This document shows, in pieces, positions 11,146-53,833 of a stretch of 64,000 nt of DNA. This stretch comes from Dethiobacter sp. (GTDB taxonomy: Bacteria; Bacillota; Dethiobacteria; Dethiobacterales; Dethiobacteraceae). The translations under genes were made by a program, and so were the position numbers. The stretch is from NCBI GenBank assembly GCA_018335875.1, contig JAGXRN010000067.1, forward strand, positions 20,688 through 84,687, written 5' to 3'. The notes below the pieces were generated by a model that searched no databases, was not told the origin of the DNA, and saw only the letters and a program-made list of their open reading frames with translations. The first letter of the stretch is position 1; every line of letters begins with the position of its first letter.

Positions 11146-11292
11146 TATTTCACCTTCCAGCGGTATAATCCGTTTATTATCGCTGGCTTCATTATACAGG
11201 AAGAATTAGTTAAAGACAATAAAAAGGCACGCTGTGCCACCTTTAAACTGAGCAAGGGAAATGCTCATATTTTTTTGTCCATCTGTTTGACT

Positions 11293-11544
11293 TCAGAAAA
11301 TATTAAGCTCAAGCGCCTCAGACAACATGTCCTTTTTAAAGCCTACTATAACAGAGTCATTAACTGTGGTCACCGGTGCTGCTTTTTGTCCTGATATAAG
11401 CCACATTTCCTCGAAGGCGTTTCGGTCTTCAATGATATTGTATTCTTTGAATTCAAAGTTATGCTGTGAAAGGAACTCTTTCACCTCAAGGCACGACATT
11501 CAGAACTTTCCCGCTGCATAAACCGTAATCACGGGTTGAGACAT
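11293..11544 (-). CDS. Glutaredoxin/NrdH-like selenoprotein candidate (UxxC), in-frame TGA at 11500-11502
   Basis: RBS GGAGAG is followed by an ATG at 11544. Translation reads MSQPVITVYAAGKF-TGA-MSCLEVKEFLSQHNFEFKEYNI...APVTTVNDSVIVGF. This is a thioredoxin fold with TGA exactly at the first position of the CxxC motif. The ORF track sees only the part 3' of the TGA. Confidence 0.7.
11466..11484 (-). promoter_or_regulatory. SECIS-like hairpin for the glutaredoxin-like gene
   Basis: On the mRNA the hairpin is GUGAAAG-AGUUC-CUUUCAC. It is a 7-bp perfect stem that begins 15 nt after UGA, with G at the second loop position. Confidence 0.45.
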
Positions 11545-11577
11545 TTTCTATCACTCTCCGTAGTCGATTCTGTAACG

Positions 11578-11799
11578 CTACTTTTTGCGGGTTGGCCAAC
11601 CCAGCAAGTCAAGTAAAATTCAATAACGCGACACACCTTCAATTATAAGGAAAACGCCCAAGAGAACGGCAACTGCAGCACCAATATAACTGCCGGGAAA
11701 AACACGCAGCGCCCCCAAAGCGACGAGTATGCTGCCTGCTATGATGCGGATGGCCATATCAAGACGGCCGATATTGCGTTTTAAACGGAATAAATACAT
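11578..11799 (-). CDS. DUF2892 (YgaP-like TM domain) selenoprotein candidate, in-frame TGA at 11620-11622
   Basis: RBS GGGAGG lies 8 nt before the ATG at 11799. Translation reads MYLFRLKRNIGRLDMAIRIIAG...IIEGVSRY-TGA-ILLDLLGWPTRKK-TAG. The TGA sits where the family has its conserved Cys (..G.CPLY.LLG..T). Confidence 0.7.
11587..11605 (-). promoter_or_regulatory. SECIS-like hairpin for the DUF2892 gene
   Basis: On the mRNA the hairpin is GC-U(bulge)-GGGUU-GGCC-AACCC-GC. It begins 14 nt after UGA, has a loop starting GG and carries a bulged U. Confidence 0.55.
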
Positions 11800-11856
11800 A
11801 AAAAAACCTCCCGCTTTAGTGTTTGGCTGCAGGAGGAAATTATGCGCCATTTAAAA

Positions 11857-12111
11857 CTATAGCATACTTAGAATGGCATACTTTACCGCCTGAAGCACCA
11901 CCCAGGCCAGCAGGGGGGAAAGATCGACCGGTAAAGAGGTTTTTGGCAATATCTTTCTGAAAGGTGCCAGCAGCGGCTCTGTGCCTTCGTAAAGCAGGCG
12001 TATCAGGGGACTTTTAGGATTGTGGGGAAGCCAAGATAATATAACGCGCGCTATTATCAGCCAAATGAGTAAATCAAAAAATAGTGCAATAATATTTGGC
12101 AGTTGTGACAC
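11857..12111 (-). CDS. YggT-family membrane protein
   Basis: 84 aa with two TM segments. The motifs ARVILSWLP and PLLAPFRKILP are typical of YggT/Ycf19. GTG start follows GGGAAGGAG, and an extended -10 (TGATACAAT) lies upstream. Confidence 0.85.
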   Translation of the reverse strand: MSQLPNIIALFFDLLIWLIIARVILSWLPHNPKSPLIRLLYEGTEPLLAPFRKILPKTSLPVDLSPLLAWVVLQAVKYAILSML

Positions 12112-12201
12112 AAAACCAGCTCCTTCCCAATACTAAGATTTATTGTATCATAAGCATCCCGGTTTGGGTAGGTGCATGCGCTTGTTTTGTATTTTTGTAT
12201 T

Positions 12202-12480
12202 TTATTGTGCGTCCCACGGCCCCGGGCAGGATACAGCGCTTAAGCTCCTGTGGTTAGAGGAGAAATGATAAATATTTTCCACCTCAGCCTGGCCTGAGGC
12301 TATAAGACGGGTGACTTTCTCAAGCCTGTCTAGGGGGAAACGGGCAGCGATGCCGCACGATGAAGAGATAATACGAGGCACAGGAATGAGTGTAACCGGC
12401 TCCTGTAGTGAATTCATCAGTTTTTCAAAGCGCAGGGCGTGGGAAACCGATGGAAATGAGGCAACGCAATATGTTTCCAA
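12202..12480 (-). CDS. DUF3343 protein (putative Se/S carrier, YedF C-terminal-like)
   Basis: FPSVSHALRFEKLM...LIPVPRIISSSCGIAARF matches the DUF3343 signature (PxPRxISSxCGxAxRF). Confidence 0.65.
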   Translation of the reverse strand: METYCVASFPSVSHALRFEKLMNSLQEPVTLIPVPRIISSSCGIAARFPLDRLEKVTRLIASGQAEVENIYHFSSNHRSLSAVSCPGPWDAQ

Positions 12481-12496
12481 GTCATTTGTCAGTCCT

Positions 12497-12721
12497 TTAT
12501 TTTTGTTTTATACTGATAATAAAATGAGTTTCCTTTTCCTCAACAGCAAAAGTATATCCGGAATTTTTCGCAAAGCGGCTGATATTCTCCACAGACACCT
12601 TGCTGTCGGATAAAATAGTCATACTGCCGGTGGATATTTTGCCCAGAAAGTCCTTTGTCCTGACAACGGGCTCAGGGCAGGATAGGCCGCGTACATCGAG
12701 GACTTCACTCTTAGACGTCAT
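12497..12721 (-). CDS. TusA/SirA-like sulfur(selenium)transferase (YedF N-terminal-like)
   Basis: LDVRGLSCPEPVVRTK carries the CPxP active-site motif. Length is 74 aa. It overlaps the yedE 3' end by 11 nt. Confidence 0.85.
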   Translation of the reverse strand: MTSKSEVLDVRGLSCPEPVVRTKDFLGKISTGSMTILSDSKVSVENISRFAKNSGYTFAVEEKETHFIISIKQK

Positions 12722-13802
12722 AGGAAACCTCTCCTTTTAAAGGAACTTTAATTTTGGGTAAAACAGCAGTGAAACCAATACTTAAAAGGAACATAAAACC
12801 AAGGACAACTCCCCATTTTCCATTGGGCGTGGCGCCTGCAGCACTCGAAGCCAGCCCGAAGTTGTGGGCGAATGCCGCACCCACGAGCATCCCCAGGAAA
12901 GACATGCCTGCATCGGCGTCACCCTCACCTGCCATCACTGTCTGACGCAGAGGGCACCCTCCAAGCAAGGTTGAACCCAGTCCCACCAAAGCCAGGCCCA
13001 GGAAATTCCAGATGCCGTCTGTGTGCGCCACGGGCTGTGAGCTAAAGCCAAGCCTGAAATAGCCAAAGCCAAGGTTAAAGATAAGGGCGGTGATAAAAAT
13101 AGCCAGTGAGCCGTAGAGAAGATGAGGGTCTTTTAAAAGAAACAGATCACGGAAGCAGCCTGCCTGGCAGAGCCTGCTGCGCTGAACAACTATTCCTATG
13201 AGCAGCCCTGCGGCAAGAGAGACAGCGAAAGGGGCTCGAAAAGAGCCGGGACCGCTTTCACTGAAAAATATAAATGCCGGTGCAACCACTGCCAGTAAAA
13301 CCAAGATAATTGCTACGGCAGGGATGGAGAGGCCGTTGGCACGGACCAGATTGACGGAGCGTCCAAGCGAAAATCCCCGCCGCAGGAAAAAGACGCCTGC
13401 AAAAATCCCGGCAATAAATCCAAAGAGTCCGACAAGAGCATTAAGGTCGCCTGCTGAGAGTCGAAGCAGCATGCGCAGCGGGCAGCCCAAAAAAACGAGT
13501 GCTCCAATCATGACAGTGAATCCCAGCAGGAAACGAAGCATAGGGGAGGAGCCGCCGCGGGCGCGAAACTCGCCTGTAAATAGAGATATCAGGAAGGAAC
13601 CAAGAATAAAGCCGGATATTTCAGGCCTCAAATATTGGACTGCTGCGGTACGGTGCAGTCCCAATCCACCCGCTATATCGCGGTAAAAGCATGCCACACA
13701 TACTCCCATGTTGGCAGGATTGCCAAATTTAACAAGCACTACGCCAAGCAATCCCAAAAAAACGCCGGAACAAACTATGAGCCGCCTTTCCAAACAGATC
13801 AC
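12711..13802 (-). CDS. yedE: YedE/YeeE-family membrane protein (selenium/thiosulfate-related transporter)
   Basis: 363-aa polytopic protein. It has GNPANMGVCVACFYRDIAG near the N-terminus and a second Cys motif (RLCQAGCFRD). Confidence 0.85.
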   Translation of the reverse strand: MICLERRLIVCSGVFLGLLGVVLVKFGNPANMGVCVACFYRDIAGGLGLHRTAAVQYLRPEISGFILGSFLISLFTGEFRARGGSSPMLRFLLGFTVMIGALVFLGCPLRMLLRLSAGDLNALVGLFGFIAGIFAGVFFLRRGFSLGRSVNLVRANGLSIPAVAIILVLLAVVAPAFIFFSESGPGSFRAPFAVSLAAGLLIGIVVQRSRLCQAGCFRDLFLLKDPHLLYGSLAIFITALIFNLGFGYFRLGFSSQPVAHTDGIWNFLGLALVGLGSTLLGGCPLRQTVMAGEGDADAGMSFLGMLVGAAFAHNFGLASSAAGATPNGKWGVVLGFMFLLSIGFTAVLPKIKVPLKGEVSYDV

Positions 13803-13869
13803 CTCTTGTAAATATTTTCACATTTACCCTAATTATATTGGCAAAACTTTGTCAGGACAAATAGCTTTC

Positions 13870-13896
13870 ATCTATAACATATTCTGACCTATAGAT
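13870..13896. promoter_or_regulatory. Inverted repeat in the divergent promoter region (candidate LysR-type operator)
   Basis: ATCTATA-N13-TATAGAT lies between yedE and the LysR gene. Confidence 0.3.
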
Positions 13897-13977
13897 AAGA
13901 TAAGGAACAAAGATTCAAAAATTCATGCAGGAATTCTACCCTGCCATGTGAAAATACTCGCACAGGAGAGTGAAAAA

Positions 13978-14889
13978 ATGGAGTTTTATCAGCTTGAAGC
14001 TTTTGTAATGGTGGTATCTCAGCGCTCATTTTCACGGGCTGCCGATATGCTCTATCTCAGCCAACCTACTGTGAGCGCTCATGTGAAGAGTCTGGAAAAC
14101 ACGCTGGGCACTGCTTTGTTCGACCGCGGCAAAGGGGAGATAATGCTTACGCCGGCAGGAGAAACACTTTACCGTTATGCCTGTGATATGCTTGATTTGA
14201 GAAAAAAAACTATCTGCGAGATCAGTGAGAAAAAAGTTAGCGCTGAAGTCCTGACAATGGCAGCCTCGTCAGTGCCCTGCCAGTATTTTTTACCAGGCGC
14301 CATAGCACGGTTTGAAAAAAAAATCCCCACTGCCACCGTGTGCCTTAAACAGGAAAACTCCCGCCGTGTTTGCGAAAGTGTGTTTAACTATCAGTACCCG
14401 CTTGGAGTAGTCGGAGAAAGACACAATCTGCCGCGGCTGGCCTATGTTCCTTTGATGGAAGATATTTTGGTGGCGGCAATCCCCAATCGTGAAGAATATA
14501 AAAGTGTTCTGGCACGAAAAGAATTGTCGGTTGAAGATCTGACAGAATTCAGGCTTCTCCTGCGGGAGCCCGGTTCAGGCACACGCTCTTTGCTGGAAAA
14601 AGAACTGCAGCGCGTGGGGGTGGGCTTGGGCCGCTTTCGTATCAGCATTTATGAAAGCCAGGAGACTATTAAGCAGGCTGTTAGACAGGGCCTTGGCGTT
14701 ACAGTAATTTCGCGCTTTGTGGTGGAAGACTATGAACAGTTCGGCTTATTGTCAACCCGTCCCTTAAGAGGGCTTGAGCTTGCGCGCCGGTTTTCTCTTG
14801 TCTACCATGACAAGCGTGTGCTATCCAATGCGGGCAGGGAACTGCGCCGGTTTTTGATATCTTTTTTTACAGCTGAGGAGGAGAAATAA
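13978..14889 (+). CDS. LysR-family transcriptional regulator
   Basis: MEFYQLEAFVMVVSQRSFSRAADMLYLSQPTVSAHVKSLE is an HTH. The ATG at 13978 follows GGAGAG. Confidence 0.9.
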   Translation: MEFYQLEAFVMVVSQRSFSRAADMLYLSQPTVSAHVKSLENTLGTALFDRGKGEIMLTPAGETLYRYACDMLDLRKKTICEISEKKVSAEVLTMAASSVPCQYFLPGAIARFEKKIPTATVCLKQENSRRVCESVFNYQYPLGVVGERHNLPRLAYVPLMEDILVAAIPNREEYKSVLARKELSVEDLTEFRLLLREPGSGTRSLLEKELQRVGVGLGRFRISIYESQETIKQAVRQGLGVTVISRFVVEDYEQFGLLSTRPLRGLELARRFSLVYHDKRVLSNAGRELRRFLISFFTAEEEK

Positions 14890-16046
14890 TGCGCGAAATC
14901 TATGCCGACCATGCAGCTACCACTTTCCCCCGCCCGCCTGCAGTGGCTGCTGCTATGACAGCTTACCTCAATAACATCGGCTGCAGTCCCGGGCGGGGAG
15001 GCTATAAAAGGTCTCTCGATGCCGCCAGGCTTGTCTATGAATCCAGGTCCCGCCTGGCGGAGTTGTTTAATGCCGCCCGCCCGGAGCAGGTGATATTTAC
15101 TCCCAGCGTTACCTACTCGCTAAACCTGTTGCTGAAAGGCCTGCTGCGCACTGGCGATCATGTGTTGGTTTCTTCTGTAGAACACAACTCAGTTGTCCGC
15201 CCCCTGTCACGCCTGGCGGGCGAACTTGAGCTCCAAGTTGAATTCCTCCAGTGCAACCCGGACTCATCCCTCGACCCGCTACAGGTGAAGAAAAAACTGC
15301 GGCCCAGTACAAGACTTGTGATTCTTACCCACGCCTCAAATGTCACCGGGGCGCTGCTGCCGGTCTATGAAACAGGGGAAATACTGGCTGGGACTGACAC
15401 TTTCTATGCCGTTGATGCGGCACAAACTGCCGGTAGTGAAGAAGTTGACTTTGCTGCTCTGCGCTGTGACTACCTGGCCTTTACCGGCCATAAAGGATTG
15501 CTTGGCCCGCCGGGAATCGGGGGCATGTGCATCAGTGAACGTGCAGCCGAGATTACAGAGCCTTTGGTAGAAGGGGGGACAGGCAGCCGCTCCGAACAGG
15601 AGCGCCAACCCGGCTTTCTGCCGGATAAATTTGAGAGCGGCACACAAAACGTGCCTGGAATTGCCGGTTTGAATGCCGGAGTTTTGACTGTACTTGATGC
15701 TGGAACAGAAGCTTTGGGCAGGCAAAAACGAGAGCTGACAGAGCGTTTCCGGCAGGGGCTTGCGCAAATCCCCGGCATCAAAGTTTACGGACCCACTGAC
15801 GCCGCCGCGACAACGGCTACAATATCTGTCAGCATAGAAGGTATGGACAGCGGAGATCTCAGCTTTATACTCGATCAGGCATACGGTATCATGACACGCT
15901 CCGGGCTCCACTGCGCTCCTTACGCCCACCGCACCTTGGGCACATTCCCCGCAGGTACGCTTCGTTTCTCATTCGGTTATGGCAGCACCCAGCTGGACGT
16001 GACAGAAATTCTTGCTGCACTAAAGGAAATAACAACCGCCAGGTAA
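14889..16046 (+). CDS. Class-V aminotransferase: cysteine desulfurase / selenocysteine lyase family
   Basis: THASNVTG, the PLP lysine in FTGHKGLLGPPGIG, and the active-site Cys in RSGLHCAP. It is translationally coupled to the LysR gene (TAATG). Confidence 0.85.
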   Translation: MREIYADHAATTFPRPPAVAAAMTAYLNNIGCSPGRGGYKRSLDAARLVYESRSRLAELFNAARPEQVIFTPSVTYSLNLLLKGLLRTGDHVLVSSVEHNSVVRPLSRLAGELELQVEFLQCNPDSSLDPLQVKKKLRPSTRLVILTHASNVTGALLPVYETGEILAGTDTFYAVDAAQTAGSEEVDFAALRCDYLAFTGHKGLLGPPGIGGMCISERAAEITEPLVEGGTGSRSEQERQPGFLPDKFESGTQNVPGIAGLNAGVLTVLDAGTEALGRQKRELTERFRQGLAQIPGIKVYGPTDAAATTATISVSIEGMDSGDLSFILDQAYGIMTRSGLHCAPYAHRTLGTFPAGTLRFSFGYGSTQLDVTEILAALKEITTAR

Positions 16047-16863: not shown

Positions 16864-16914
16864 ACCTATTCACTGCGCTCTGAAAAGGAAAATATTAATA
16901 GCAGGATATTAAGA

Positions 16915-17067
16915 ATTTGGGAGAGACCGTAATGATTAGCGGTCGCCGAAGGATAAATTCAGCTGTGCTGAAAAATCTCTCAGGTCTCAAGGGCAGGGCA
17001 GAATTTACCTCCATAGTACATTGTAAATAGTGTGCAATGGTGAACTCTGGAACTGTCTTTTGTTTTG
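16915..17067 (+). promoter_or_regulatory. Single glycine-riboswitch-like aptamer plus degenerate terminator (duplicate of aptamer 2 of the downstream tandem)
   Basis: GGGAGAGACC...CGCCGAAGGA...CTCTCAGGT...GGCAG core. By eye it is about 75-80% identical to 17394-17540, including the expression platform. Confidence 0.6.
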
Positions 17068-17284: not shown

Positions 17285-17536
17285 ACCGGATGAGGATTGT
17301 GGGAGAGACCTTTAAGTATACACTTAAGGGCACCGAAGGGGCAAAGTCGCTGACTGAAACTCTCAGGTAAAAGTACCGCATTCTGACGGAGCTCTGGAGA
17401 GACCGTGCTGCTTAGCGGTCACCGAAGGAGAAATTCAGCATGCTGAAGAATCTCTCAGGTCAAAGGACAGAGAAGAATTTACCGCTAAAGTACATATTAT
17501 TGGTGTGCAGAGGTAAATTCTGAGACTGTCTTTTTG
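17285..17536 (+). promoter_or_regulatory. Tandem glycine riboswitch with terminator expression platform
   Basis: Aptamer 1 reads GGGAGAGACC..CACCGAAGGGGCAA..CTCTCAGGTAAAAGTAC. Aptamer 2 reads CTGGAGAGACC..CACCGAAGGAG..CTCTCAGGTCAAAGGACAG. A long imperfect terminator follows (GACAGAGAAGAATTTACC / GGTAAATTCTGAGACTGTC + TTTTT), and its 5' arm overlaps the 3' end of aptamer 2. Confidence 0.85.
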
Positions 17537-17640: not shown

Positions 17641-18399
17641 GTGTTCCGGTCGAGGAGAGTATTAAAAAAACGCGGAGGAGTGAATATATTGGCTGAAGAA
17701 ATTTTAAGAATTGCTAATGAGTTTGGAGTTTGGGTTATTGCTGCCATCCTGGTAAGCTTGGTTGCAGTACAATCAATAATGTATGTTAAGCTTGCTTATG
17801 CTGCAGCCGACAAGATTGGCATGAGCCAAGCAACCTGTAAGACTGCTTTCAGGACAGGTCTTATCACTGCCATCGGTCCTGTAATAGCAATCTTTATTAT
17901 CATGGTTGGCATGATGTCGGTTATTGGAGGCCCCATGAGTTGGATGAGATTATCAATTATCGGCGCCGCCCCGACAGAATTAACCGCAGCCCGGGTAGGC
18001 GCAGAAGCTTATGGCGTTGGGTTTGGCTCACCGGAATACGACATGATGGCGCTGGCAACTTCATGGTGGACAATGGCCATAAATGGCGTGGGCTGGCTGC
18101 TCCTGGTGGGGCTTTTCAGCCATAAACTGGAAACTCTCAGAGATGTTATCGGGGGCGGAAATGCAAAATGGCTGGCAATGCTAAGCGGCGCCGCCATGCT
18201 TGGAGTTTTTGGCTATCTCAATTCAGGCGATGTAGTAGCGGGAGGGGCAAGGCTTGTTGCTGTAATTGTGGGCGGAATTTCCATGGTCCTAATGGTTACA
18301 GTCGTTATAAAAAAAGTCCCTGCGCTTAAGGAGTATTCACTTGGTATAGCCATGCTGATCGGCATGTTTGGGGCTGTAATTGTCAGCTTAATGAGTTAA
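17641..18399 (+). CDS. Uncharacterised polytopic membrane protein A (about 6 TM)
   Basis: Hydrophobic and Gly/Ala-rich. It is the first gene after the glycine riboswitch. The start is uncertain; TTG at 17689 lies 8 nt after GGAGGAG. Confidence 0.75.
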   Translation: MFRSRRVLKKRGGVNILAEEILRIANEFGVWVIAAILVSLVAVQSIMYVKLAYAAADKIGMSQATCKTAFRTGLITAIGPVIAIFIIMVGMMSVIGGPMSWMRLSIIGAAPTELTAARVGAEAYGVGFGSPEYDMMALATSWWTMAINGVGWLLLVGLFSHKLETLRDVIGGGNAKWLAMLSGAAMLGVFGYLNSGDVVAGGARLVAVIVGGISMVLMVTVVIKKVPALKEYSLGIAMLIGMFGAVIVSLMS

Positions 18400-21744: not shown

Positions 21745-21970
21745 ATGAATCTGGCGGGAGAGGCCCAATCTTGGGACACCGAAGGAGAAACCTTTATGGC
21801 ATGGCAGTCTGGAGGGAAACTCTCAGGTATAAGTACCGGCAGGGGACGCGTCCCTGGAGAGAGCCCGCTTAACGTGGGACACCAAAGGGGTAATGCCCGG
21901 ATATCCGGGTTAATCTCTCAGGTAAAAAGGACAGGGGAAACGGCCGGTTGGTTGTTTTCCCTGTTTTTTT
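21745..21970 (+). promoter_or_regulatory. Tandem glycine riboswitch upstream of gcvT
   Basis: Aptamer 1 reads GGCGGGAGAGGCC..CACCGAAGGAG..CTCTCAGGTATAAGTAC. Aptamer 2 reads CTGGAGAGAGCC..CACCAAAGGGGTAA..CTCTCAGGTAAAAAGGACAG. The terminator is ACAGGGGAAA / TTTTCCCTGT + T7. Confidence 0.85.
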
Positions 21971-24856: not shown

Positions 24857-26313
24857 GAAAGCACAAAGAGCTTCTTTTTGAAATGGGGAGAGCCGGACGG
24901 CGCGGCTATTCCTTACCAGCCTGTGACGTCCCTGTAAAACCTGTCTCTGAGCTGCTGCCCGCTTCCATGCAGCGCAAACTACCCCTTGATTTGCCCGAGC
25001 TGTCGGAGGGCGAGGTAATGCGGCATTATACAGCCCTTTCCACACGCAATCACGGGGTTGATTCCGGTTTTTACCCCCTTGGCTCCTGCACAATGAAATA
25101 CAATCCAAAGGTGAATGAAGAGGCTGCAGCGCTTGCGGGCTTTGCTTTTGCTCACCCCTGCCAGGATGAGTCAACAGTCCAGGGTGCGCTGGAACTACTC
25201 TTTAAGGCTGAAGAAAGCCTGAAAGAAATCACCGGCATGGACAGGATTACTTTCCAGCCTGTGGCCGGAGCTCACGGTGAGTTGACAGGGTTGATGATGA
25301 TTGGAGCCTACCACCGCTCGCGAAATGAAAACAGAAATAAAGTGCTGGTTCCCGACTCAGCCCATGGCACAAATCCCGCCACGGCAGCTATGGCAGGTTT
25401 CGAAGTGGTACAGATACCCTCCGATGACAGGGGCTTGGTCGATATTAGAGCGCTAAAAGAAGCATTGGGGAGCGACACTGCGGCGTTGATGCTGACAAAC
25501 CCAAATACGCTGGGCCTGTTTGAAGAGGAGATTCTGGAGATTGCAGCTGCAGTCCATGAAGCAGGAGGGCTGCTCTACTATGACGGAGCAAACCTCAATG
25601 CTGTCATGGGCTATGCCCGCCCAGGCGATATGGGGTTTGATGTTGTCCACTTAAACCTGCATAAAACATTTTCCACACCGCACGGCGGGGGCGGCCCCGG
25701 CAGCGGCACAGTGGGTGTCAAAGAAAAACTTGTGCCTTTCCTGCCGCTTCCCCTGGTGGGACGCAATGAAGAAAGGTATTACTTTGACTATGACCGCCCG
25801 GCCAGCATTGGGAAAATTCACAGTTTTCACGGTAATTTCGGCGTGGTTGTCAAAGCGTACACCTATATCTGTATGATGGGAAGCTCCGGGCTAAAACAGG
25901 TAAGCGCAGACGCCGTACTCAATGCCAATTACCTGATGAGCAGGCTTAAAAGTTCTTATAACCTTCCATACGACAGATTATGCAAGCATGAATTTGTGCT
26001 TTCCGCCCGTGAGCAGAAGAAAAATGGAGTCAGCGCCTCCGATATAGCCAAGGCTCTTTTGGACTTTGGCTATCATCCCCCCACGGTATATTTTCCCCTT
26101 GTGGTGGAGGAAGCACTGATGATTGAGCCCACCGAGACAGAAAGCAAGGAGACGCTGGACTCTTTCGCCGGGGTCATGGAAAAGATCGCATGCCTGGCCC
26201 GGGATAACCCGGCAAGGGTGAAAGAGGCGCCGCACACCACCGTGGTGGGCAGGCTGGATGAAGTTAGGGCGGCGCGCCAGCCCCGGGTCCGTTGGCGCCG
26301 CAGTGACTCCTGA
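24853..26313 (+). CDS. gcvPB: Glycine dehydrogenase (decarboxylating) subunit 2
   Basis: The PLP-lysine region is [21 protein letters not shown] at 24853 overlaps the gcvPA stop (ATGA). Confidence 0.95.
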
Positions 26314-27182
26314 TGCAGCAACAAGACATAGAAGAGCTGCTTGAAGAGACTTGGGCTTTGCGCAGAGCCTATTTCCCGCATCGCATTGAATTTGTATATC
26401 CCATCCAGACACTGCCAGTAAGTATAACAGGAAGTGACTGTGCCCTGAACTGTGCCCATTGCGGCCGGGAATATATTAAACGGATGTCTACCCTTAAGGA
26501 GGCTGTGCAGGGTAAAAGAGGAGACTGCAAAAGCTTCCTGCTCAGCGGAGGCTGCGACACACGCGGCGCTGTTCCTCACCTGCTGCACCGTCAGGAAATC
26601 AATGAACTCGCAAGGCGGGGCCGCCTTAACATCCATGCAGGTTTGGTTGGGGAAGATGAGACAAGTGAACTGGCTAAATTGTCCACTGTAATCTCCTTTG
26701 ATTTTGTAGTGGATGACGAGACTATCGAGGAAGTCTACGGATTGCCTGTCAGCAGCGCCAGTTATATAGAGTCCTACCGCCGCCTGCGCCGCCTGACCCA
26801 CGTTGTCCCACATATTTGCATCGGCCTCAAAGGCGGTGAAATCAAGGGGGAGTACAAAGCGCTGGAGGCTCTGAAGCGCGAGGGGGCGCAAGCTATAAGT
26901 TTTATTATATTTCGACCCACTCCCAACACTGCATTTGCAGACTGCACTCCCCCCCCCGCAGCTGAAGTAGTCAGGATACTGTCAACTGCCCGCATCATGT
27001 TTCCACGCGTGCCGATTTACCTTGGCTGCATGCGTCCCGGGGGCAACTACAGAAGTATGCTGGACTGCCTGGCTATCAGGGCAGGTGTCAATAAGCTTGT
27101 CCACCCAAGCCCTGCAGCCCGCAATCTGGCTCAGGTACTGGGCCTAAATATAGTACGTAAAGAGGAGTGCTGCTCACTGTGA
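26313..27182 (+). CDS. Radical SAM protein (BioB/LipS-like), member 1 of a pair
   Basis: CX3CX2C motif CALNCAHC near the N-terminus. It is translationally coupled to gcvPB (TGATG). Confidence 0.8.
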   Translation: MQQQDIEELLEETWALRRAYFPHRIEFVYPIQTLPVSITGSDCALNCAHCGREYIKRMSTLKEAVQGKRGDCKSFLLSGGCDTRGAVPHLLHRQEINELARRGRLNIHAGLVGEDETSELAKLSTVISFDFVVDDETIEEVYGLPVSSASYIESYRRLRRLTHVVPHICIGLKGGEIKGEYKALEALKREGAQAISFIIFRPTPNTAFADCTPPPAAEVVRILSTARIMFPRVPIYLGCMRPGGNYRSMLDCLAIRAGVNKLVHPSPAARNLAQVLGLNIVRKEECCSL

Positions 27183-28174
27183 TACGCATGTCAGCCGGAA
27201 CGGCAGCCTGCCTGGGCTTAAAAACTATAAAGATGGATGTTCATCCAACCACGGCTTACCTGCTTTTGGGAGACAGCTGTACCATGAAATGTTCTTTTTG
27301 TCCTCAGGGGAAAGAAAGCAGCGGAGCAGCAGGCCGGCTCGGCAGGGTCACGTGGCCGTCTTTTTCTTTGCCGGAGTTGGAACAGGGACTGGAAAAAGCA
27401 GAAGAGTCAGGGATAAAAAGAATATGCCTGCAGGGTGTAAGGAATGAATTGAGTACAGCTGCTTTCCCGGCACTGGTAAAAAAGCTCAAAGAAATCTCGT
27501 CGCTGCCTGTCTGCACTTCTGCCTGGATTAAAGATGAAAATGAAGCTGCCCACCTGTTTGAATCCGGCGCAGACCGTGTCAGTATTGCACTTGATGCTGC
27601 CAGTGAAGAGGCGTATAAACAGTTTAAGGGCGGCTCCCTTGCACAAAGAAAAGAACTTCTTATTTCCTGTGCCCGCCGCTGGCCCGGGCGTATCAGCACA
27701 CACCTTATTTGCGGTCTGGGTGAAACAGAGCAGGAACTGCTGGCACTGACAGCAGAGCTCCTAATGGAGCAGGTAGCTGTGGCACTTTTTGCTTTTACTC
27801 CCCTTAAGGGGACTGCCCTGGCCGGCCAGCCTCCTCCAGAGGCGGGGAAATACAGGCGCATACAGGCGGCATCTTATTTGTTGCGTAAGAAACACCTTTC
27901 ATTTTCTCAGCTTGTCTTTGGCGAAAATGGCAGTCTGGAATCACTTGGCGTTACACCTGAAATGCTGCTGAATTTACTAAAAGGGAAAGAAGCGTTTTGT
28001 ACCAGCGGCTGCCCCGACTGCAACCGTCCTTATTATAACGAAAGGCCGGGGGGCTTTATCTACAACTTTCCAAGGCTCTTAACAGAGCCTGAGGAAAGAG
28101 AAGCCCTGGGGCTTATCACAGCAAGCCTGCAGGAGGTGAAAAGGAATGCGGGAAGTATGGCGGCTAATCTGTGA
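27167..28174 (+). CDS. Radical SAM protein (BioB/LipS-like), member 2 of a pair
   Basis: CX3CX2C motif CTMKCSFC, plus C-terminal Cys motif CTSGCPDCNRPYYNE. The start is uncertain (GTG 27167 or 27179, or ATG 27188). Confidence 0.8.
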   Translation: MLLTVIRMSAGTAACLGLKTIKMDVHPTTAYLLLGDSCTMKCSFCPQGKESSGAAGRLGRVTWPSFSLPELEQGLEKAEESGIKRICLQGVRNELSTAAFPALVKKLKEISSLPVCTSAWIKDENEAAHLFESGADRVSIALDAASEEAYKQFKGGSLAQRKELLISCARRWPGRISTHLICGLGETEQELLALTAELLMEQVAVALFAFTPLKGTALAGQPPPEAGKYRRIQAASYLLRKKHLSFSQLVFGENGSLESLGVTPEMLLNLLKGKEAFCTSGCPDCNRPYYNERPGGFIYNFPRLLTEPEEREALGLITASLQEVKRNAGSMAANL

Positions 28175-28880
28175 CGAACAACTGCCGGGTGAAAAAAATA
28201 TGTCACGGGATTTAGCCATTCTTGACGAAGTGGCAAAGGCTGCAGCGCCGCCAACTCTCCGTTTCTATACCTGGAGCCCTCCAGCCTTATCGCTGGGCTA
28301 TTTTCAGCAAGCTGAGGACGTGGCTGATATAGAGGCTTGCAGGCGCCTTGGCATAGAAATTGTGAGGAGGCCAACCGGAGGCAGAGCGCTGCTTCACCAC
28401 CGCGAACTAACTTATAGCGTGGCTGTGCCAGAAGGCCACCCGCTTATACCCACTGCAGTACTGCCTGCCTATAAGTTTCTCAGCAGTGCAATCATTAACG
28501 GTCTTTCCCTGTTAGGCGTAGAGGCTGACCTCTCAGCGGGTGAGAACAGGGGGAGGGGAAAGGCGCCGGGTTCGTGTTTTGATACTCCTTCAGCCTATGA
28601 AATACAAATTGGGGGCAAGAAAGTGGTAGGAAGCGCTCAGCTTCGCCGCAATGGAGCTCTTCTGCAGCACGGCTCTATTCTGCTTGAACTCTCACTGGAC
28701 CTCTACCGCCATGTCCTGCGCCATGACTGCAGGGAGGATAATTATATTGATATTCTGGGCAAAAGGGCGGCAGGGCTTCATGATCTTGGTTACAATACAC
28801 CCATAGAGGATCTTACGGGGGCAATGGTCAGTGGTTTTTCAGAGCTGCTGTCGACCGACTTCTTAAGGGAGGATTTATGA
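28146..28880 (+). CDS. Lipoate-protein ligase / octanoyltransferase family protein (catalytic domain only)
   Basis: WRLI...NMSRDLAILDE, RRPTGGRALLH and KKVVGSAQLRR (lipoyl-AMP lysine region). Length is 244 aa. Confidence 0.85.
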   Translation: MREVWRLICDEQLPGEKNMSRDLAILDEVAKAAAPPTLRFYTWSPPALSLGYFQQAEDVADIEACRRLGIEIVRRPTGGRALLHHRELTYSVAVPEGHPLIPTAVLPAYKFLSSAIINGLSLLGVEADLSAGENRGRGKAPGSCFDTPSAYEIQIGGKKVVGSAQLRRNGALLQHGSILLELSLDLYRHVLRHDCREDNYIDILGKRAAGLHDLGYNTPIEDLTGAMVSGFSELLSTDFLREDL

Positions 28881-28881
28881 T

Positions 28882-30282
28882 ATGGAACACTACCAGCTGA
28901 CTGTAATAGGAGGGGGTCCAGGCGGTTATGCAGCTGCCCTGCGCGCCGCTGCCCTGGGGCAGAAAACCCTCTTGATTGAGAAAGAAACACTGGGTGGCAC
29001 ATGCCTCAATCACGGGTGCATCCCAACCAAAACTTTGTTTCACAGCGCACAGCTCTATAATAAAATAAAAAAAGCAGGTGAATTCGGTTTTAGTACCGGT
29101 GAAGTTACTTTTTCTTATGGAAAAATACAGGACAGAAAAATTGCCGTTGTGGACAAACTTGTCACCGGTCTTTCAGGCTTGCTCAAAAGAGCCGGTGTTG
29201 AAACTTGTTTTGGCACGGCACAGCTTATTTCAGCCAACTTGGTTGAGATAGAAAAGGCAGATGGGAACAGGCTTAGGGCAGGTACAGACAAAATTATACT
29301 GGCGCCGGGCAGCGAGGAAATAATTCCCTCCGTCACCGGGATAGAACTGCCAGGAATTCTTACTTCAAGAGAGGCACTGGCGCTGAGGGAAGTTCCATCC
29401 AGCCTGGCAGTAATCGGCGGTGGTGTCATCGCTGTTGAGATGGCTTCAATCTTTGCATCTTTTGGCTGCTCTGTGACCATTGTGCAGAGAAGTATAATAC
29501 TGCGCCGGGAAGACAGGGAAATGGTGCGCCGCCTGATTCCTTATCTGCGCAAACAAGGCATTAAGATCATGACAGACACTCAGCTGGAAAAAATCGAACA
29601 GTCTGCAAACGGCTATGCTCTCACTGTCAGTGCAAGGCAAAAAGAAGAAACCGTAAAGGCGGAAGCTGTGCTGGTGGCAGTTGGCCGCAAGGCTTCAAGC
29701 GGAGGCCTTGACCTTAACTCCCTGGGGATTAAGTGCAGTTCCAGGGGCATTGATGTAAGTGATACAATGGAAACAAGTGCTGCGGGAGTCTATGCCATCG
29801 GGGACGCAGCTGCCCCGGGTTACTTCCTGGCTCACGTAGCAACCCACCAGGGGATTGTGGCAGCAGAAAACGCCGCCGGCCTGCAATCTGTTTTTAAAGG
29901 AGAAGTTGTGCCTGTCTGCATCTTTACACAGCCGGAACTGGCGCGAGTCGGGCTCACTGAAGAAGAGGCCAGAGAAAAAGGTTATGACGTTAAAGTAGGC
30001 AAATTTCCTTTTTCCGCCAACGGCAAGGCCTTTTTGCAAGGAGAAGGGGAAGGCGCCGTTAAAATTGTCTGTGACGGCAAAGACGGCCCTGTGCTTGGCG
30101 TCCATATATTGGGTCCGCATGCTTCCGACCTGATACAGGAGGGAGCGCTGGCAGTTTCTGCCGGCATTAAAATAAGTGAACTGGCGGATTTAATCCATCC
30201 CCATCCAACATTAAGCGAAGCTGTCTGGGAGGCTGCCCTTACTGTGGGAAAATCGCCGCTGCATCTTGAACACTGGGGGTAA
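28882..30282 (+). CDS. lpdA: Dihydrolipoyl dehydrogenase (L protein / E3)
   Basis: GGGPGGY..GGTCLNHGCIPTK redox disulfide and the C-terminal HPHPTLSE motif. Confidence 0.93.
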   Translation: MEHYQLTVIGGGPGGYAAALRAAALGQKTLLIEKETLGGTCLNHGCIPTKTLFHSAQLYNKIKKAGEFGFSTGEVTFSYGKIQDRKIAVVDKLVTGLSGLLKRAGVETCFGTAQLISANLVEIEKADGNRLRAGTDKIILAPGSEEIIPSVTGIELPGILTSREALALREVPSSLAVIGGGVIAVEMASIFASFGCSVTIVQRSIILRREDREMVRRLIPYLRKQGIKIMTDTQLEKIEQSANGYALTVSARQKEETVKAEAVLVAVGRKASSGGLDLNSLGIKCSSRGIDVSDTMETSAAGVYAIGDAAAPGYFLAHVATHQGIVAAENAAGLQSVFKGEVVPVCIFTQPELARVGLTEEEAREKGYDVKVGKFPFSANGKAFLQGEGEGAVKIVCDGKDGPVLGVHILGPHASDLIQEGALAVSAGIKISELADLIHPHPTLSEAVWEAALTVGKSPLHLEHWG

Positions 30283-53563: not shown

Positions 53564-53585
53564 TGCAATAACCTCCTCGTTGTTT

Positions 53586-53833
53586 TTTAAAAACAAAAAA
53601 CCCTTTTCACTCCATAGAGACGAAAAGGGTAATCCGCGGTACCACTCTAATTGGCATAGTATGCCCACTTAAGCCCGTAACGAGGGAATGCGGCCAGGTC
53701 TACTCGTTTCCTTTCGGCTGGCACTCCGGGGTGAGTTTCAGTCAGGATCTAGGGCCGCCTCACACCTACCCGGCGGCTCTCTGTTTCCTAATGCCGGACT
53801 TACTGTCCCCGTCATCGTTTTAAATATTAATTA
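53586..53833 (-). promoter_or_regulatory. T-box riboswitch leader, CUC (Leu) specifier
   Basis: All elements are on the minus strand. There is an AGAGAG box. The specifier loop reads GAAA-CUC-A, with CUC at 53733-53735. The T-box sequence is AATTAGAGTGGTACCGCGG (53634-53652). The terminator is ACCCTTTTC / GAAAAGGGT + T6 (53595-53630). Confidence 0.85.

What the first reader, a model, noticed from the sequence alone, without database searches (positions are those of the whole stretch)
11293..16046. Selenium-handling island: YedE, split YedF (TusA + DUF3343), YggT, two UGA-recoded small proteins, divergent LysR + class-V aminotransferase
The minus strand encodes yedE, a 74-aa TusA/SirA-like protein, a DUF3343 protein, yggT, a DUF2892 ORF and a glutaredoxin-like ORF. 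The last two are complete only if an in-frame TGA is decoded. A LysR regulator translationally coupled to a cysteine-desulfurase/selenocysteine-lyase-type enzyme is transcribed divergently. YedE, YedF and DUF3343 have been linked to selenium utilisation by comparative genomics, and YedF is normally a SirA-like domain fused to a DUF3343-like domain; here the two halves are separate genes. As far as I know, this membrane protein, carriers, PLP enzyme and regulator have not been described packed together with two Sec-encoding genes. A coherent reading is a module for selenium uptake, trafficking and redox handling. An extended -10 (TGATACAAT, 12142-12150) suggests yggT-DUF2892-grx may form a separate sub-operon.
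Basis: partly seen in the sequence, partly recalled or inferred. Interest (0 to 1): 0.8.

Follow-up and report, generated by a model that had tools for sequence, protein, structure and literature searches.

The report
Known selenium gene module plus two selenoproteins
This Dethiobacter locus is an ordinary example of an already described selenium-associated gene module (YedE, a TusA-like protein, DUF3343, a cysteine-desulfurase-like enzyme and a LysR regulator), and next to it lies a separately promoted unit encoding two genuine but mis-annotated selenoproteins, one from a widespread small membrane-protein family missing from the catalogues I could check.

Summary
The core is yedE, tusA-like and DUF3343, facing a divergent lysR and a class-V PLP enzyme. 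It passes curated selenium-linked models (TIGR04112, NF040786, TIGR01977) and matches the module described by Lin et al. 2015. In 80 other genomes, yedE is followed by tusA-like in 78 and by DUF3343 in 55.

"Split YedF" is wrong. YedF's second domain is DsrE-like, and TusA-like and DUF3343 are separate genes in 58 of 58 loci.

Both TGAs are best read as selenocysteine. The codon, the downstream coding sequence and a hairpin are conserved in orthologues, including the cultured D. alkaliphilus AHT1.

The Sec-DUF2892 form is widespread: 82 of 82 metagenome pattern matches. Synonymous-site constraint and covariation support a GGUC-loop hairpin. It is absent from NCBIfam and from a 2026 selenoproteome review.

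Neither Sec gene accompanies yedE outside the Dethiobacter clade. A conserved extended -10 before yggT points to a separate unit.

New detail: a conserved ATAG-N7-CTAT box abuts the yedE -35.

Not testable here: selABCD. Overall, a new member of a known kind, of moderate interest.

The parts
14889..16046 (+). Class-V PLP enzyme of the cysteine-desulfurase / selenocysteine-lyase type (SclA-like, TIGR01977 family).
   Evidence: TIGR01977 428.8 bits (cut-off 377); NF040779 SclA 387 bits (cut-off 525, not reached). PF00266 272 bits. The PLP lysine (HK) and the active-site Cys (SGLHCAP) are visible in the translation. Nearest solved structures are SufS/CsdB-type enzymes. A homologue lies divergently upstream of yedE in 43 of 80 loci and within 4 kb in 50 of 80.
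13978..14889 (+). LysR_Se-type transcriptional regulator. Its stop overlaps the start of the PLP-enzyme gene by 1 nt. An alternative GTG start lies at 13948.
   Evidence: NF040786 'selenium metabolism-associated LysR' 278.7 bits (cut-off 250), with the match starting at residue 11 of the long ORF. Gene callers use the 303-aa form.
13861..13875 (.). Candidate LysR operator, the dyad ATAG-N7-CTAT (of T-N11-A type), directly abutting the yedE -35.
   Evidence: The box is invariant in an alignment of five divergent intergenic regions. It is also present in L093, in the same register: box, then TTGnnn, then 17 nt, then TATAAT. It occurs in 12 of 79 yedE upstream windows against about 1 expected from shuffles or random windows, maximum 4-5. 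Binding by LysR is inferred, not shown.
13832..13860 (-). Promoter-like site for the yedE operon (TTGTCC, 17 nt, TATAAT).
   Evidence: 10 of 12 matches. The register relative to the LysR box is conserved in L084, L088 and L093.
12711..13793 (-). yedE, a polytopic membrane protein and putative selenium transporter (360 aa from the TTG start).
   Evidence: TIGR04112 490 bits, against thiosulfate TsuA/YeeE models at only 31-40 bits (cut-offs 400-645); invariant Cys35, Cys38, Cys107, Cys212 and Cys283, including two GCPLR motifs; at least 8 hydrophobic segments; distant match to the YeeE structures 6LEO and 8K1R.
12497..12721 (-). Stand-alone TusA/SirA-like protein with a CPEP motif. It overlaps the yedE end by 11 nt and is the likely cytoplasmic partner of YedE, by analogy with YeeD.
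   Evidence: PF01206 63 bits; matches only the N-terminal third of YedF TIGR03527, below cut-off. It lies directly downstream of yedE in 78 of 80 loci.
12202..12480 (-). DUF3343 ('putative Se/S carrier'), a small soluble protein with a conserved Cys (SSSCG).
   Evidence: PF11823 72 bits. It follows tusA-like in 55 of 80 loci, always as a separate ORF. No solved relative was found.
12142..12150 (-). Extended -10 (TGATACAAT), the candidate internal promoter for yggT-DUF2892-grx.
   Evidence: Present in the sequence. TRTGnTAsAAT is conserved at the same place upstream of yggT in L084, L086, L088, L093 and L008. No terminator-like site was found between DUF3343 and yggT.
11857..12111 (-). yggT-family small membrane protein with two hydrophobic segments.
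   Evidence: PF02325 76.9 bits; hydrophobic segments. It keeps this position in all Dethiobacter-clade loci, including L008, which lacks the two Sec genes.
11578..11799 (-). Sec-containing DUF2892/YgaP-like protein with two TM segments (73 aa). Sec60 is encoded by the TGA at 11620-11622 and the true stop is the TAG at 11578-11580.
   Evidence: 53.3 bits with read-through against 36.9 truncated. The UGA and the downstream U-[ILMV]-x-x-D-x-x-G-W-[SP]-T are conserved in 9 loci. A Cys-form homologue has Cys at that position. All 82 metagenome pattern matches have a DUF2892-like N-terminus. Public annotation truncates the protein to 59 aa.
11585..11607 (-). SECIS-like hairpin of Sec-DUF2892: upper stem GGGUU/AACCC with a GGCC loop (GGUC in nearly all relatives), plus a lower stem. 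The loop starts 22 nt after the UGA.
   Evidence: Fold. In 73 distinct sequences the Gly codon is GGU in 63 and GGG in 10 (GGU is 30% of upstream Gly codons). The Ser codon is UCA in 66 of 72 (25% upstream). The closing pair covaries: G-C 44, A-U 11, G-U 11, with 92% paired. Nine sequences alone gave no covariation.
11293..11544 (-). Sec-containing glutaredoxin-like protein (83 aa). Sec15 is encoded by the TGA at 11500-11502 and the active site is U-M-S-C.
   Evidence: read-through completes PF00462 positions 1-60. The UGA and the upstream ITVY(S/A)AGK strand are conserved in L084, L086, L088 and L093. All database homologues are annotated N-terminally truncated at 60-68 aa.
11466..11484 (-). 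SECIS-like hairpin of Sec-grx: GUGAAAG, AGUUC loop, CUUUCAC.
   Evidence: Fold. Conserved in 5 loci. L088 carries one compensatory change, A-U to G-C, through AAA>AGA and the synonymous CUU>CUC.
11216..11238 (-). Intrinsic-terminator-like site after grx (GGCACAGCGTGCC followed by a T-run).

Best explanation
The locus holds two adjacent units rather than one integrated island.

Unit A is a typical member of the selenium-associated module already predicted by comparative genomics. It is a divergon: lysR_Se plus an sclA-like gene on one strand, and yedE, tusA-like and DUF3343 on the other.

Inferred mechanism for unit A:
- YedE is a YeeE/TsuA-like membrane channel with conserved pore cysteines. 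It moves a selenium species across the membrane.
- YedE hands the selenium to the Cys of the stand-alone TusA-like partner, as YeeD does for YeeE.
- DUF3343 acts as a further Cys-based carrier.
- The SclA-like PLP enzyme mobilises selenium from selenocysteine for SelD.
- LysR_Se controls yedE through an ATAG-N7-CTAT box that abuts the -35.

Unit B is yggT, Sec-DUF2892 and Sec-grx. It has its own conserved extended -10 promoter and ends at a terminator. It encodes two real selenoproteins:
- a two-TM membrane protein whose Sec sits at the predicted cytoplasmic face, before an amphipathic basic tail;
- a cytoplasmic UxxC glutaredoxin-like protein.

The position of unit B next to unit A is specific to the Dethiobacter clade and is probably not an obligate functional coupling.

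Shown here: gene identities, the conserved UGAs and hairpins, the conserved box and promoter, and the neighbourhood statistics. Inferred: every biochemical step and the regulation.
For: - Curated models are passed: TIGR04112 490/200, NF040786 278.7/250, TIGR01977 428.8/377, plus PF01206 and PF11823.
- In 80 genome loci, tusA-like follows yedE in 78, DUF3343 follows in 55, an SclA-like gene lies within 4 kb in 50, and a LysR within 4 kb in 19.
- Lin et al. 2015 describe the same associations and model.
- The YeeE-YeeD complex structures are the nearest solved relatives of YedE. The YeeD partner paradigm is in PMC11073785.
- The LysR box is conserved in six loci and enriched 12 against about 1.
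- The extended -10 before yggT is conserved in six loci, and a terminator follows grx.
- The Sec codons are conserved and a Cys homologue aligns at the Sec position.
- Synonymous-site and covariation support exists for the DUF2892 hairpin, with one compensatory pair in the grx hairpin.
- The pieces are modular: L086 lacks yedE-tusA, L008 lacks DUF2892-grx and L092 lacks grx.
- Sec-DUF2892 has no conserved neighbours in 71 distinct metagenome loci.
Against: - No member of the YedE, TusA-like, DUF3343 or LysR_Se set has a demonstrated biochemical function. A yedE deletion in Methanococcus maripaludis gave no clear transport phenotype, although yedE was induced by selenium starvation.
- DUF3343 and TusA families also occur in organisms that do not use selenium.
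- The PLP enzyme misses the strict SclA model (387 against 525).
- No terminator separates DUF3343 from yggT, so read-through co-transcription of all six genes is possible.
- selABCD and tRNA-Sec could not be checked for this genome.
- The LysR box is found in only 15% of yedE upstream regions with the strict pattern.
Confidence: 0.72

Rival explanations
1. All six minus-strand genes form one functional selenium uptake, trafficking and redox module. Sec-DUF2892 and Sec-Grx act as membrane-face redox partners that process the selenium delivered by YedE, TusA and DUF3343.
For: - The genes share a strand and have short gaps (-11, 16, 90, 57 and 36 nt), with no terminator before yggT.
- The order DUF3343-yggT-DUF2892-grx is kept in the window, L084, L088, L093 and L086, although DUF2892 identity falls to about 50%.
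- In L086 these genes stay behind the LysR box even without yedE-tusA.
- The predicted topology puts the Sec of DUF2892 at the cytoplasmic face, where a soluble Sec-Grx could reach it (plus the positive-inside rule, an inference).
Against: - None of 80 other yedE loci has DUF2892 or Grx nearby.
- None of 82 Sec-DUF2892 metagenome loci has yedE, tusA, DUF3343, yggT, grx, lysR or sclA nearby, and their neighbours are heterogeneous.
- The whole region (OAD, VanW, DinB, HutP and others) is syntenic in the clade, so conserved order may reflect only vertical inheritance.
- L008 keeps yedE through yggT but lacks both Sec genes.
- A conserved own promoter precedes yggT.
Confidence: 0.18
2. The module handles sulfur (thiosulfate, polysulfide or persulfide) rather than selenium, in a sulfur-respiring organism. 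On this reading the Sec residues are only catalytic upgrades of thiol proteins.
For: - YedE belongs to the Sulf_transp superfamily (PF04143) and is distantly related to the thiosulfate importer YeeE/TsuA, which works with a TusA-like partner.
- TusA and DUF3343 have no selenium-specific subfamilies, and Lin et al. do not exclude sulfur roles.
- Dethiobacter is described as part of the reductive sulfur cycle (title of Sorokin et al. 2008, cited).
Against: - The protein scores 490 bits on the YedE selenium equivalog but only 31-40 bits on the TsuA models, whose cut-offs are 400-645.
- The regulator passes the selenium-associated LysR model.
- Lin et al. report that YedE and LysR_Se occur almost only in SelD-containing organisms.
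- yedE is induced by selenium starvation in M. maripaludis.
Confidence: 0.08
3. The two TGAs are ordinary stop codons. The products would then be a 59-aa truncated DUF2892 protein and a 68-aa Grx fragment starting at the ATG after the TGA, as public annotation has it.
For: - Gene callers and NCBI annotate the genes this way.
- An ATG happens to follow the TGA in the window's grx.
- The genome's Sec machinery was not verified.
- Rfam finds no SECIS.
Against: - Orthologues have no ATG after the grx TGA (UGAC, UGSC and UKPC contexts), yet they conserve the upstream strand and its RBS.
- The 12-17 codons after the DUF2892 TGA are conserved as protein in 9 loci and in 73 distinct metagenome sequences, and they complete the Pfam domain.
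- Cys occupies the position in a Cys-form homologue.
- The hairpins are under synonymous-site constraint.
- A Grx lacking its active site would be non-functional.
Confidence: 0.02

Closest known systems
Selenium-associated YedE / SirA-like / DUF3343 / Sec-lyase-like / LysR_Se gene set (Lin et al. 2015, PMC5322559; TIGR04112, NF040786, PF11823)
   Same: The families are the same and pass the curated cut-offs. The adjacency is also the same: yedE next to SirA-like and DUF3343, as in Slackia Shel_25130, Shel_25120 and Shel_25110, with a Sec-lyase-family gene and a LysR_Se nearby. The proposed roles match too: transporter, carriers, selenium mobilisation and regulator.
   Different: Here lysR and the PLP-enzyme gene overlap by 1 nt and face yedE directly. 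A conserved ATAG-N7-CTAT box abutting the -35 can be pointed to. I did not find this box described, but I did not search the literature for it specifically. A yggT / Sec-DUF2892 / Sec-grx unit is appended in the Dethiobacter clade only.
YeeE(TsuA)-YeeD(TsuB) thiosulfate uptake system (PDB 6LEO, 8K1R, 8J4C; PMC11073785)
   Same: A Sulf_transp-fold membrane protein with conserved pore cysteines is encoded immediately upstream of a small TusA-like protein carrying the CPxP cysteine. This gives a mechanistic template for YedE with its TusA-like partner.
   Different: The sequence relationship is only distant (38 bits to 6LEO; TsuA models 31-40 bits against cut-offs of 400-645). The protein belongs to the selenium-linked YedE equivalog instead. 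The substrate is unknown.
YedF (TIGR03527), SirA-like plus DsrE-like two-domain protein
   Same: The 74-aa protein resembles YedF's N-terminal SirA/TusA domain (positions 1-66).
   Different: There is no DsrE-like or CGXC domain. The score of 61.8 is below the cut-off of 110. DUF3343 is not the missing half, because it matches nothing in NCBIfam. So this is not a split YedF.
Selenoprotein glutaredoxins (PF00462, UxxC; e.g. Clostridium/Alkaliphilus oremlandii Grx, Kim et al. 2011, cited in PMC13188914)
   Same: A thioredoxin-fold Grx-like protein with Sec as the first residue of the U-x-x-C motif, and a hairpin shortly downstream of the UGA.
   Different: It falls below the cut-offs of the specific NCBIfam models (YruB family 60.6 against 88.55; Uxx-star 35.5 against 66). 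It is unannotated as a selenoprotein in Dethiobacter. Its redox partner is unknown.
DUF2892 / YgaP-like transmembrane domain (PF11127), Cys-containing forms
   Same: The same two-TM domain. The conserved Cys of the C-terminal motif (GFC-ILY..LG..T in P0137) aligns with the Sec.
   Different: Sec replaces Cys, the motif becomes Y-U-x-x-x-D-x-x-G-W-S-T, and the GWST codons double as a GGUC-loop hairpin. This Sec form is absent from NCBIfam release 20 and from the family table of the 2026 selenoproteome review.
SclA selenocysteine lyase of Enterococcus faecalis (NF040779; bioRxiv 10.1101/2020.02.07.939272)
   Same: The same TIGR01977 subfamily of class-V PLP enzymes, encoded in a selenium-metabolism context.
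   Different: The score of 387 is below the SclA cut-off of 525. Its preference for selenium over sulfur is untested here.

Membership tests
YedE selenium-associated transporter (TIGR04112) | Score above the equivalog cut-off over the full model length | tested here: met
   490.2 bits against 200, model positions 2-337 of 337.
YedE selenium-associated transporter (TIGR04112) | Polytopic membrane protein (about ten TM) with conserved cysteines | tested here: met
   At least 8 segments on a crude hydropathy scan. Cys35, Cys38, Cys107, Cys212 and Cys283 are invariant in 16 sequences.
YedE selenium-associated transporter (TIGR04112) | Occurs in SelD-containing, selenium-utilising genomes | not testable with these tools
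Indirect support: two conserved Sec-UGA genes in the same locus.
YedF (TIGR03527) | Two-domain protein of about 200 aa: SirA-like N-terminus plus DsrE-like C-terminus with CGXC | tested here: not met
   The 74-aa protein scores 61.8 against 110 and matches model positions 1-66 of 194 only. DUF3343 has no NCBIfam hit. The definition is from Lin et al.. The two are separate ORFs in 58 of 58 loci.
LysR_Se (NF040786) | Score above the equivalog cut-off | tested here: met
   278.7 against 250. The next best LysR model is far below its own cut-off.
LysR_Se (NF040786) | Genomic association with selenium-metabolism genes | tested here: met
   It is divergent from yedE and overlaps the sclA-like gene. 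A LysR lies within 4 kb of yedE in 19 of 80 loci.
LysR_Se (NF040786) | Binds an operator and responds to selenium status | not testable with these tools
   Only a conserved candidate box.
SclA selenocysteine lyase (NF040779) | Score above the model cut-off | tested here: not met
   387 against 525. The protein does pass the broader TIGR01977 model (428.8 against 377).
DUF3343 / Se_S_carrier (PF11823) | Pfam gathering score and a conserved Cys | tested here: met
   72.2 against 25, model positions 1-68 of 69. The SSSCG Cys is present.
Bacterial selenoprotein gene (Sec-DUF2892) | In-frame UGA conserved in orthologues, with conserved coding sequence downstream | tested here: met
   9 loci plus 73 distinct metagenome sequences.
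Bacterial selenoprotein gene (Sec-DUF2892) | Cys-containing homologues aligned at the UGA position | tested here: met
   P0137 has Cys53 opposite the Sec position. Read-through adds 16 bits to PF11127.
Bacterial selenoprotein gene (Sec-DUF2892) | SECIS-like stem-loop shortly downstream of the UGA | tested here: met
   A hairpin 22 nt after the UGA with a GGUC loop in 72 of 73 sequences. GGU and UCA codon bias, and G-C/A-U covariation of the closing pair. No Rfam model matches.
Bacterial selenoprotein gene (Sec-DUF2892 and Sec-Grx) | Host has selA, selB, selC and selD, and the protein incorporates selenium | not testable with these tools
   Needs a whole-genome search or 75Se labelling.
Selenoprotein glutaredoxin (PF00462, UxxC) | Grx fold with Sec in the U-x-x-C active site, a conserved UGA and a hairpin | tested here: met
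   PF00462 39.6 against 22.9, model positions 1-60 of 60 with read-through. The UGA is conserved in 5 loci, and there is one compensatory pair in the hairpin.
YeeE/TsuA thiosulfate transporter | Score above the TsuA model cut-offs | tested here: not met
   NF052577 39.8 against 400; NF041049 31.2 against 645.

The most novel reading that the evidence does not exclude
Sec-DUF2892 is an uncatalogued, widespread family of membrane-anchored selenoproteins whose GWST codons double as the SECIS hairpin. In the Dethiobacter clade it works with the adjacent UxxC Sec-glutaredoxin and YggT as a membrane-face chalcogen redox relay. That relay would be functionally coupled to YedE / TusA-like / DUF3343 selenium import under LysR_Se control. 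I rate the first half (a genuine new selenoprotein family) at about 0.85 on its own. The probability given here is for the whole statement, including the functional coupling.
Probability: 0.17. Interest if true: 0.6.

Novelty: new member of a known kind. Interest (0 to 1): 0.4.

Why it matters
The core module is already in the literature and in annotation models, so finding it in Dethiobacter adds little. Three by-products are useful.

1. Two selenoproteins are systematically mis-annotated as truncated proteins, including in the cultured type strain D. alkaliphilus AHT1. One of them belongs to a widespread small membrane selenoprotein family that current catalogues and NCBIfam lack. That affects selenoproteome counts in anaerobic metagenomes.

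2. The conserved ATAG-N7-CTAT box abutting the yedE -35 gives a concrete, testable operator for the so far uncharacterised bacterial LysR_Se regulator. It also offers a way to predict the regulator's regulon.

3. The universal pairing of yedE with a stand-alone tusA-like gene, read against the solved YeeE-YeeD complex, gives a specific structural hypothesis for how the still unproven selenium transporter hands over its cargo.

Tried and rejected
- Rfam at gathering threshold on the whole window, and at E<=10 on 11200-11900, found no SECIS family. This is uninformative, because these bacterial hairpins are not modelled.
- Single-sequence folding of both hairpins was not significant against shuffles (z -1.5 and -1.3).
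- Pair counting on only nine DUF2892 sequences gave no covariation. The signal appeared only with 73 distinct sequences.
It was rerun with the 59-aa truncated form.
- The genome-level check for selABCD failed.
- The search for a conserved partner of Sec-DUF2892 found none. tblastn of all module proteins against 82 metagenome loci gave only one HutP hit. A Pfam scan of 92 flanking ORFs gave 77 different families, none in more than 4 loci.
- I considered stop-codon read-through or a Sec-linked TusA-DUF3343 fusion in the eight loci where the two ORFs share a frame. I rejected it because all the stops are TAA or TAG.
- A PDB sequence search for DUF3343 found nothing.
- The relaxed LysR pattern TAG-N7-CTA was not enriched (15 against 9.7 expected). 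Only the 4+4 dyad is.

Full report
**What is in the sequence**

On the minus strand between 11293 and 13802 lie six co-directional genes:
- yedE (12711-13793; TIGR04112 'YedE family putative selenium transporter', 490 bits against a cut-off of 200).
- A 74-aa TusA/SirA-like gene that overlaps the yedE end by 11 nt (12497-12721; PF01206).
- DUF3343/'Se_S_carrier' (12202-12480; PF11823).
- yggT (11857-12111).
- A DUF2892/YgaP-like two-TM gene (11578-11799), interrupted by TGA at 11620-11622.
- A glutaredoxin-like gene (11293-11544), interrupted by TGA at 11500-11502, giving U-M-S-C.

Two genes are transcribed divergently. One is a LysR regulator (13978-14889) that passes NCBI's 'selenium metabolism-associated LysR' model (NF040786, 278.7 against 250). 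The other is a class-V PLP enzyme (14889-16046) whose start overlaps the lysR stop by one base. It passes TIGR01977 (428.8 against 377) but not the strict SclA selenocysteine-lyase model (387 against 525).

The window comes from a Dethiobacter sp. MAG, since its YedE is 100% identical to P0001.

**The core is a known module, not a novelty**

I fetched 80 yedE loci from other genomes and located homologues of every cluster protein:

| Feature relative to yedE | Loci (of 80) |
|---|---|
| tusA-like directly downstream | 78 |
| DUF3343 after tusA-like | 55 |
| SclA-like gene divergent, immediately upstream | 43 |
| SclA-like gene within 4 kb | 50 |
| LysR within 4 kb | 19 |
| All four | 12 |

This is the association published by Lin et al. 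2015 (PMC5322559). [quoted passage not shown] Their Slackia example has YedE, SirA-like and DUF3343 as neighbours. They also describe a LysR_Se subfamily and DUF3343 as a candidate selenium chaperone, and they draw a selenium homeostasis model. Pfam and NCBIfam already encode these ideas.

**'Split YedF' is wrong**

- Lin et al. define YedF (TIGR03527) as SirA-like plus a DsrE-like domain with CGXC.
- Here the TusA-like protein matches only positions 1-66 of 194 of that model, below cut-off.
- The DUF3343 protein matches no NCBIfam model.
- In 58 of 58 loci where both are detected, they are separate ORFs.
- In the eight cases where they share a frame, the intervening stop is TAA or TAG.

The better analogy is YeeD, the stand-alone TusA-like partner of the thiosulfate channel YeeE. 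The YeeE-YeeD complex structures (8K1R, 8J4C) and YeeE alone (6LEO) are the nearest solved relatives of this YedE. The relationship is distant, and the TsuA models are far from met (31-40 bits against 400-645).

**Regulation of the core**

An alignment of the lysR-yedE intergenic regions of five divergent loci shows an invariant dyad ATAG-N7-CTAT (window 13861-13875). It directly abuts a -35-like TTGTCC, followed by 17 nt and TATAAT (13832-13860). The same register recurs in L084, L088 and L093. It also recurs in L086, where the box precedes DUF3343 because yedE and tusA are absent.

With the strict pattern, 12 of 79 independent yedE upstream windows carry the dyad. About 1 is expected from shuffles or random windows of the same loci, with a maximum of 4-5 in 200 trials. 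The dyad fits the T-N11-A form of LysR-type operators (established knowledge). That LysR_Se binds it is an inference.

**The two TGAs are selenocysteine codons**

*DUF2892*
- Every database homologue is annotated as 58-59 aa, ending at the same residue.
- In nine loci the codon is TGA. It is followed by conserved U-[ILMV]-x-x-D-x-x-G-W-[SP]-T and a basic tail before a real stop.
- Read-through raises the PF11127 score from 36.9 to 53.3 bits and completes the domain.
- A Cys-form homologue (P0137) has Cys at the aligned position.
- A degenerate DNA pattern for Y-U-...-GW(S)T found 82 metagenome stretches. All 82 have a DUF2892-like N-terminus upstream. Three appear frameshifted upstream and match only through the pattern-enforced C-terminal part (17 bits).
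- In 73 distinct sequences, the hairpin formed by the GWST codons is under constraint that protein coding cannot explain:
  - Gly is GGU in 63 and GGG in 10, never GGC or GGA. GGU is 30% of upstream Gly codons.
  - Ser is UCA in 66 of 72, against 25% upstream.
  - The closing pair covaries: G-C 44, A-U 11, G-U 11, with 92% paired.
  - The loop is GGUC in 72 of 73.
- From memory, unchecked: the loop resembles the E. coli fdhF SECIS loop.

*Grx*
- The UGA, the upstream beta-strand (ITVY[AS]AGK) with its own RBS, and the hairpin GUGAAAG-AGUUC-CUUUCAC are conserved in five loci.
- Orthologues have no ATG after the UGA.
- L088 has a compensatory A-U to G-C change in the stem.
- All database entries, including that of D. 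alkaliphilus, are N-terminally truncated.

Sec-containing UxxC glutaredoxins are a known selenoprotein family. By contrast, PF11127, DUF2892 and YgaP do not appear in the family table of the 2026 selenoproteome review. No paper in the library contains both 'DUF2892' and 'selenocysteine'. No NCBIfam model matches.

**Are the Sec genes part of the selenium module? Probably not obligately**

1. None of the 80 other yedE loci has DUF2892 or Grx nearby, and only one has yggT.
2. None of the 82 metagenomic Sec-DUF2892 loci has any module gene nearby. Their flanking ORFs fall into 77 different Pfam families, with no family in more than four loci.
3. Inside the Dethiobacter clade the full arrangement is present in the window, L084, L088 and D. 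alkaliphilus AHT1 (L093). In all of these the whole surrounding region (OAD, VanW, GDSL, DinB, HutP) is syntenic too, so the conserved order may reflect only vertical inheritance.
4. The pieces vary independently. L086 lacks yedE-tusA, L008 lacks DUF2892-grx but keeps yggT, and L092 lacks grx.
5. That supports a separate yggT-DUF2892-grx transcription unit, ending at the terminator-like site 11226-11238.

No terminator-like site lies between DUF3343 and yggT, so read-through from the yedE promoter remains possible.

**Most likely mechanism (inferred)**

- YedE conducts a selenium species through a cysteine-lined pathway (Cys35, Cys38, Cys107, Cys212 and Cys283 are invariant).
- It passes the selenium to the CPEP cysteine of the TusA-like partner, and DUF3343 carries it further.
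- The PLP enzyme recycles selenium from selenocysteine.
- LysR_Se, bound next to the -35, tunes yedE to selenium status.

Supporting evidence from elsewhere: yedE mRNA rises about 5 log2-fold on selenium starvation in Methanococcus maripaludis, although its deletion gave no clear transport phenotype (PMC11097638).

For unit B, hydropathy and the positive-inside rule place both termini of Sec-DUF2892 in the cytoplasm. Its Sec would then sit at the membrane face, next to a soluble UxxC Sec-Grx. A redox pair is plausible but untested.

**What could not be tested**

The presence of selA, selB, selC and selD in this genome could not be checked. The window has no tRNA-Sec, and none of the 20 additional large ORFs scanned is a sel gene. 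Other routes to the genome were exhausted. The conserved, structurally constrained UGA codons are indirect evidence for Sec decoding.

**Verdict**

It over-reaches in fusing the two Sec genes into that core.

Useful new items:
- an uncatalogued, widespread Sec-DUF2892 family with a well-supported hairpin;
- systematic mis-annotation of both selenoproteins, including in a cultured strain;
- a candidate LysR_Se operator.

Interest is moderate (0.4). Novelty: a new member of a known kind.

Noticed in passing
L119, L126, L145, L170 (metagenome loci): Some Sec-DUF2892 relatives are much shorter upstream of the UGA (for example IMIISFKRNLGNTDRTVRIILGSLLLVEGILGY-U-IILDMLGWST). They seem to keep only one hydrophobic segment while retaining the Y-U...GWST end and hairpin. 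This may be a mini-variant of the family.
   Followed up: no
L086 7092-7600 (ENA bin.20 contig): A Dethiobacter-clade relative lacks yedE and tusA-like entirely. It keeps lysR-sclA, the ATAG-N7-CTAT box (now in front of DUF3343), and yggT, Sec-DUF2892 and Sec-grx. DUF3343 is therefore retained under the LysR box without the transporter.
   Followed up: partly
window 13927-13935 (minus-strand AATTCCTGC): A second block, with TCCTGC invariant, is conserved in all five aligned lysR-yedE intergenic regions. It lies about 45 nt upstream of the lysR ATG. Its function is unknown; it could be the lysR promoter or an autoregulatory site.
   Followed up: no
window 16908-16999 and 17290-17388 (+): Two glycine riboswitch aptamers are separated by about 290 nt rather than being adjacent. 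They lie upstream of a DUF5058 membrane protein (17641-18399), an unassigned 225-aa membrane ORF and two M20 peptidase genes. The first aptamer is barely above threshold (33.1 against 32). A normal tandem pair sits at 21745-21936 before the gcvT-H-PA-PB operon.
   Followed up: no
window 26313-30282 (+): Directly after the glycine-cleavage genes come LipS1 and LipS2 (the two-protein lipoyl synthase), an LplA-like ligase fragment and dihydrolipoyl dehydrogenase. Together with the gcv operon this forms a compact glycine-cleavage and lipoylation block.
   Followed up: no
window 53613-53824 (-): A T-box leader (118.9 bits) lies upstream of leuA (52001-53668). The long GTG-started leuA ORF overlaps the leader, so the true start is probably further downstream; the model match begins at residue 36-39.
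   Followed up: no
L093 9981-10484 (D. alkaliphilus AHT1, ACJM01000002.1): In the cultured type strain both selenoprotein genes are annotated as truncated proteins: DUF2892 at 59 aa and 'glutaredoxin family protein' at 62 aa. There the DUF2892 gene also ends at a second UGA, which acts as the stop 18 codons after the Sec-UGA.
   Followed up: partly
L116 about 12150-12990, and L092 130-664: hutP lies just downstream of Sec-DUF2892 in an unrelated activated-sludge contig (71% HutP identity). It also does so in L092, without grx in between. The DUF2892-hutP adjacency therefore recurs outside the full cluster.
   Followed up: no
window 44470-45729 (+): A methionine gamma-lyase-family PLP enzyme (PF06838, 547 bits) lies between hflX and glnA. 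It is another sulfur/selenium amino-acid enzyme in the window, with no evident link to the locus.
   Followed up: no
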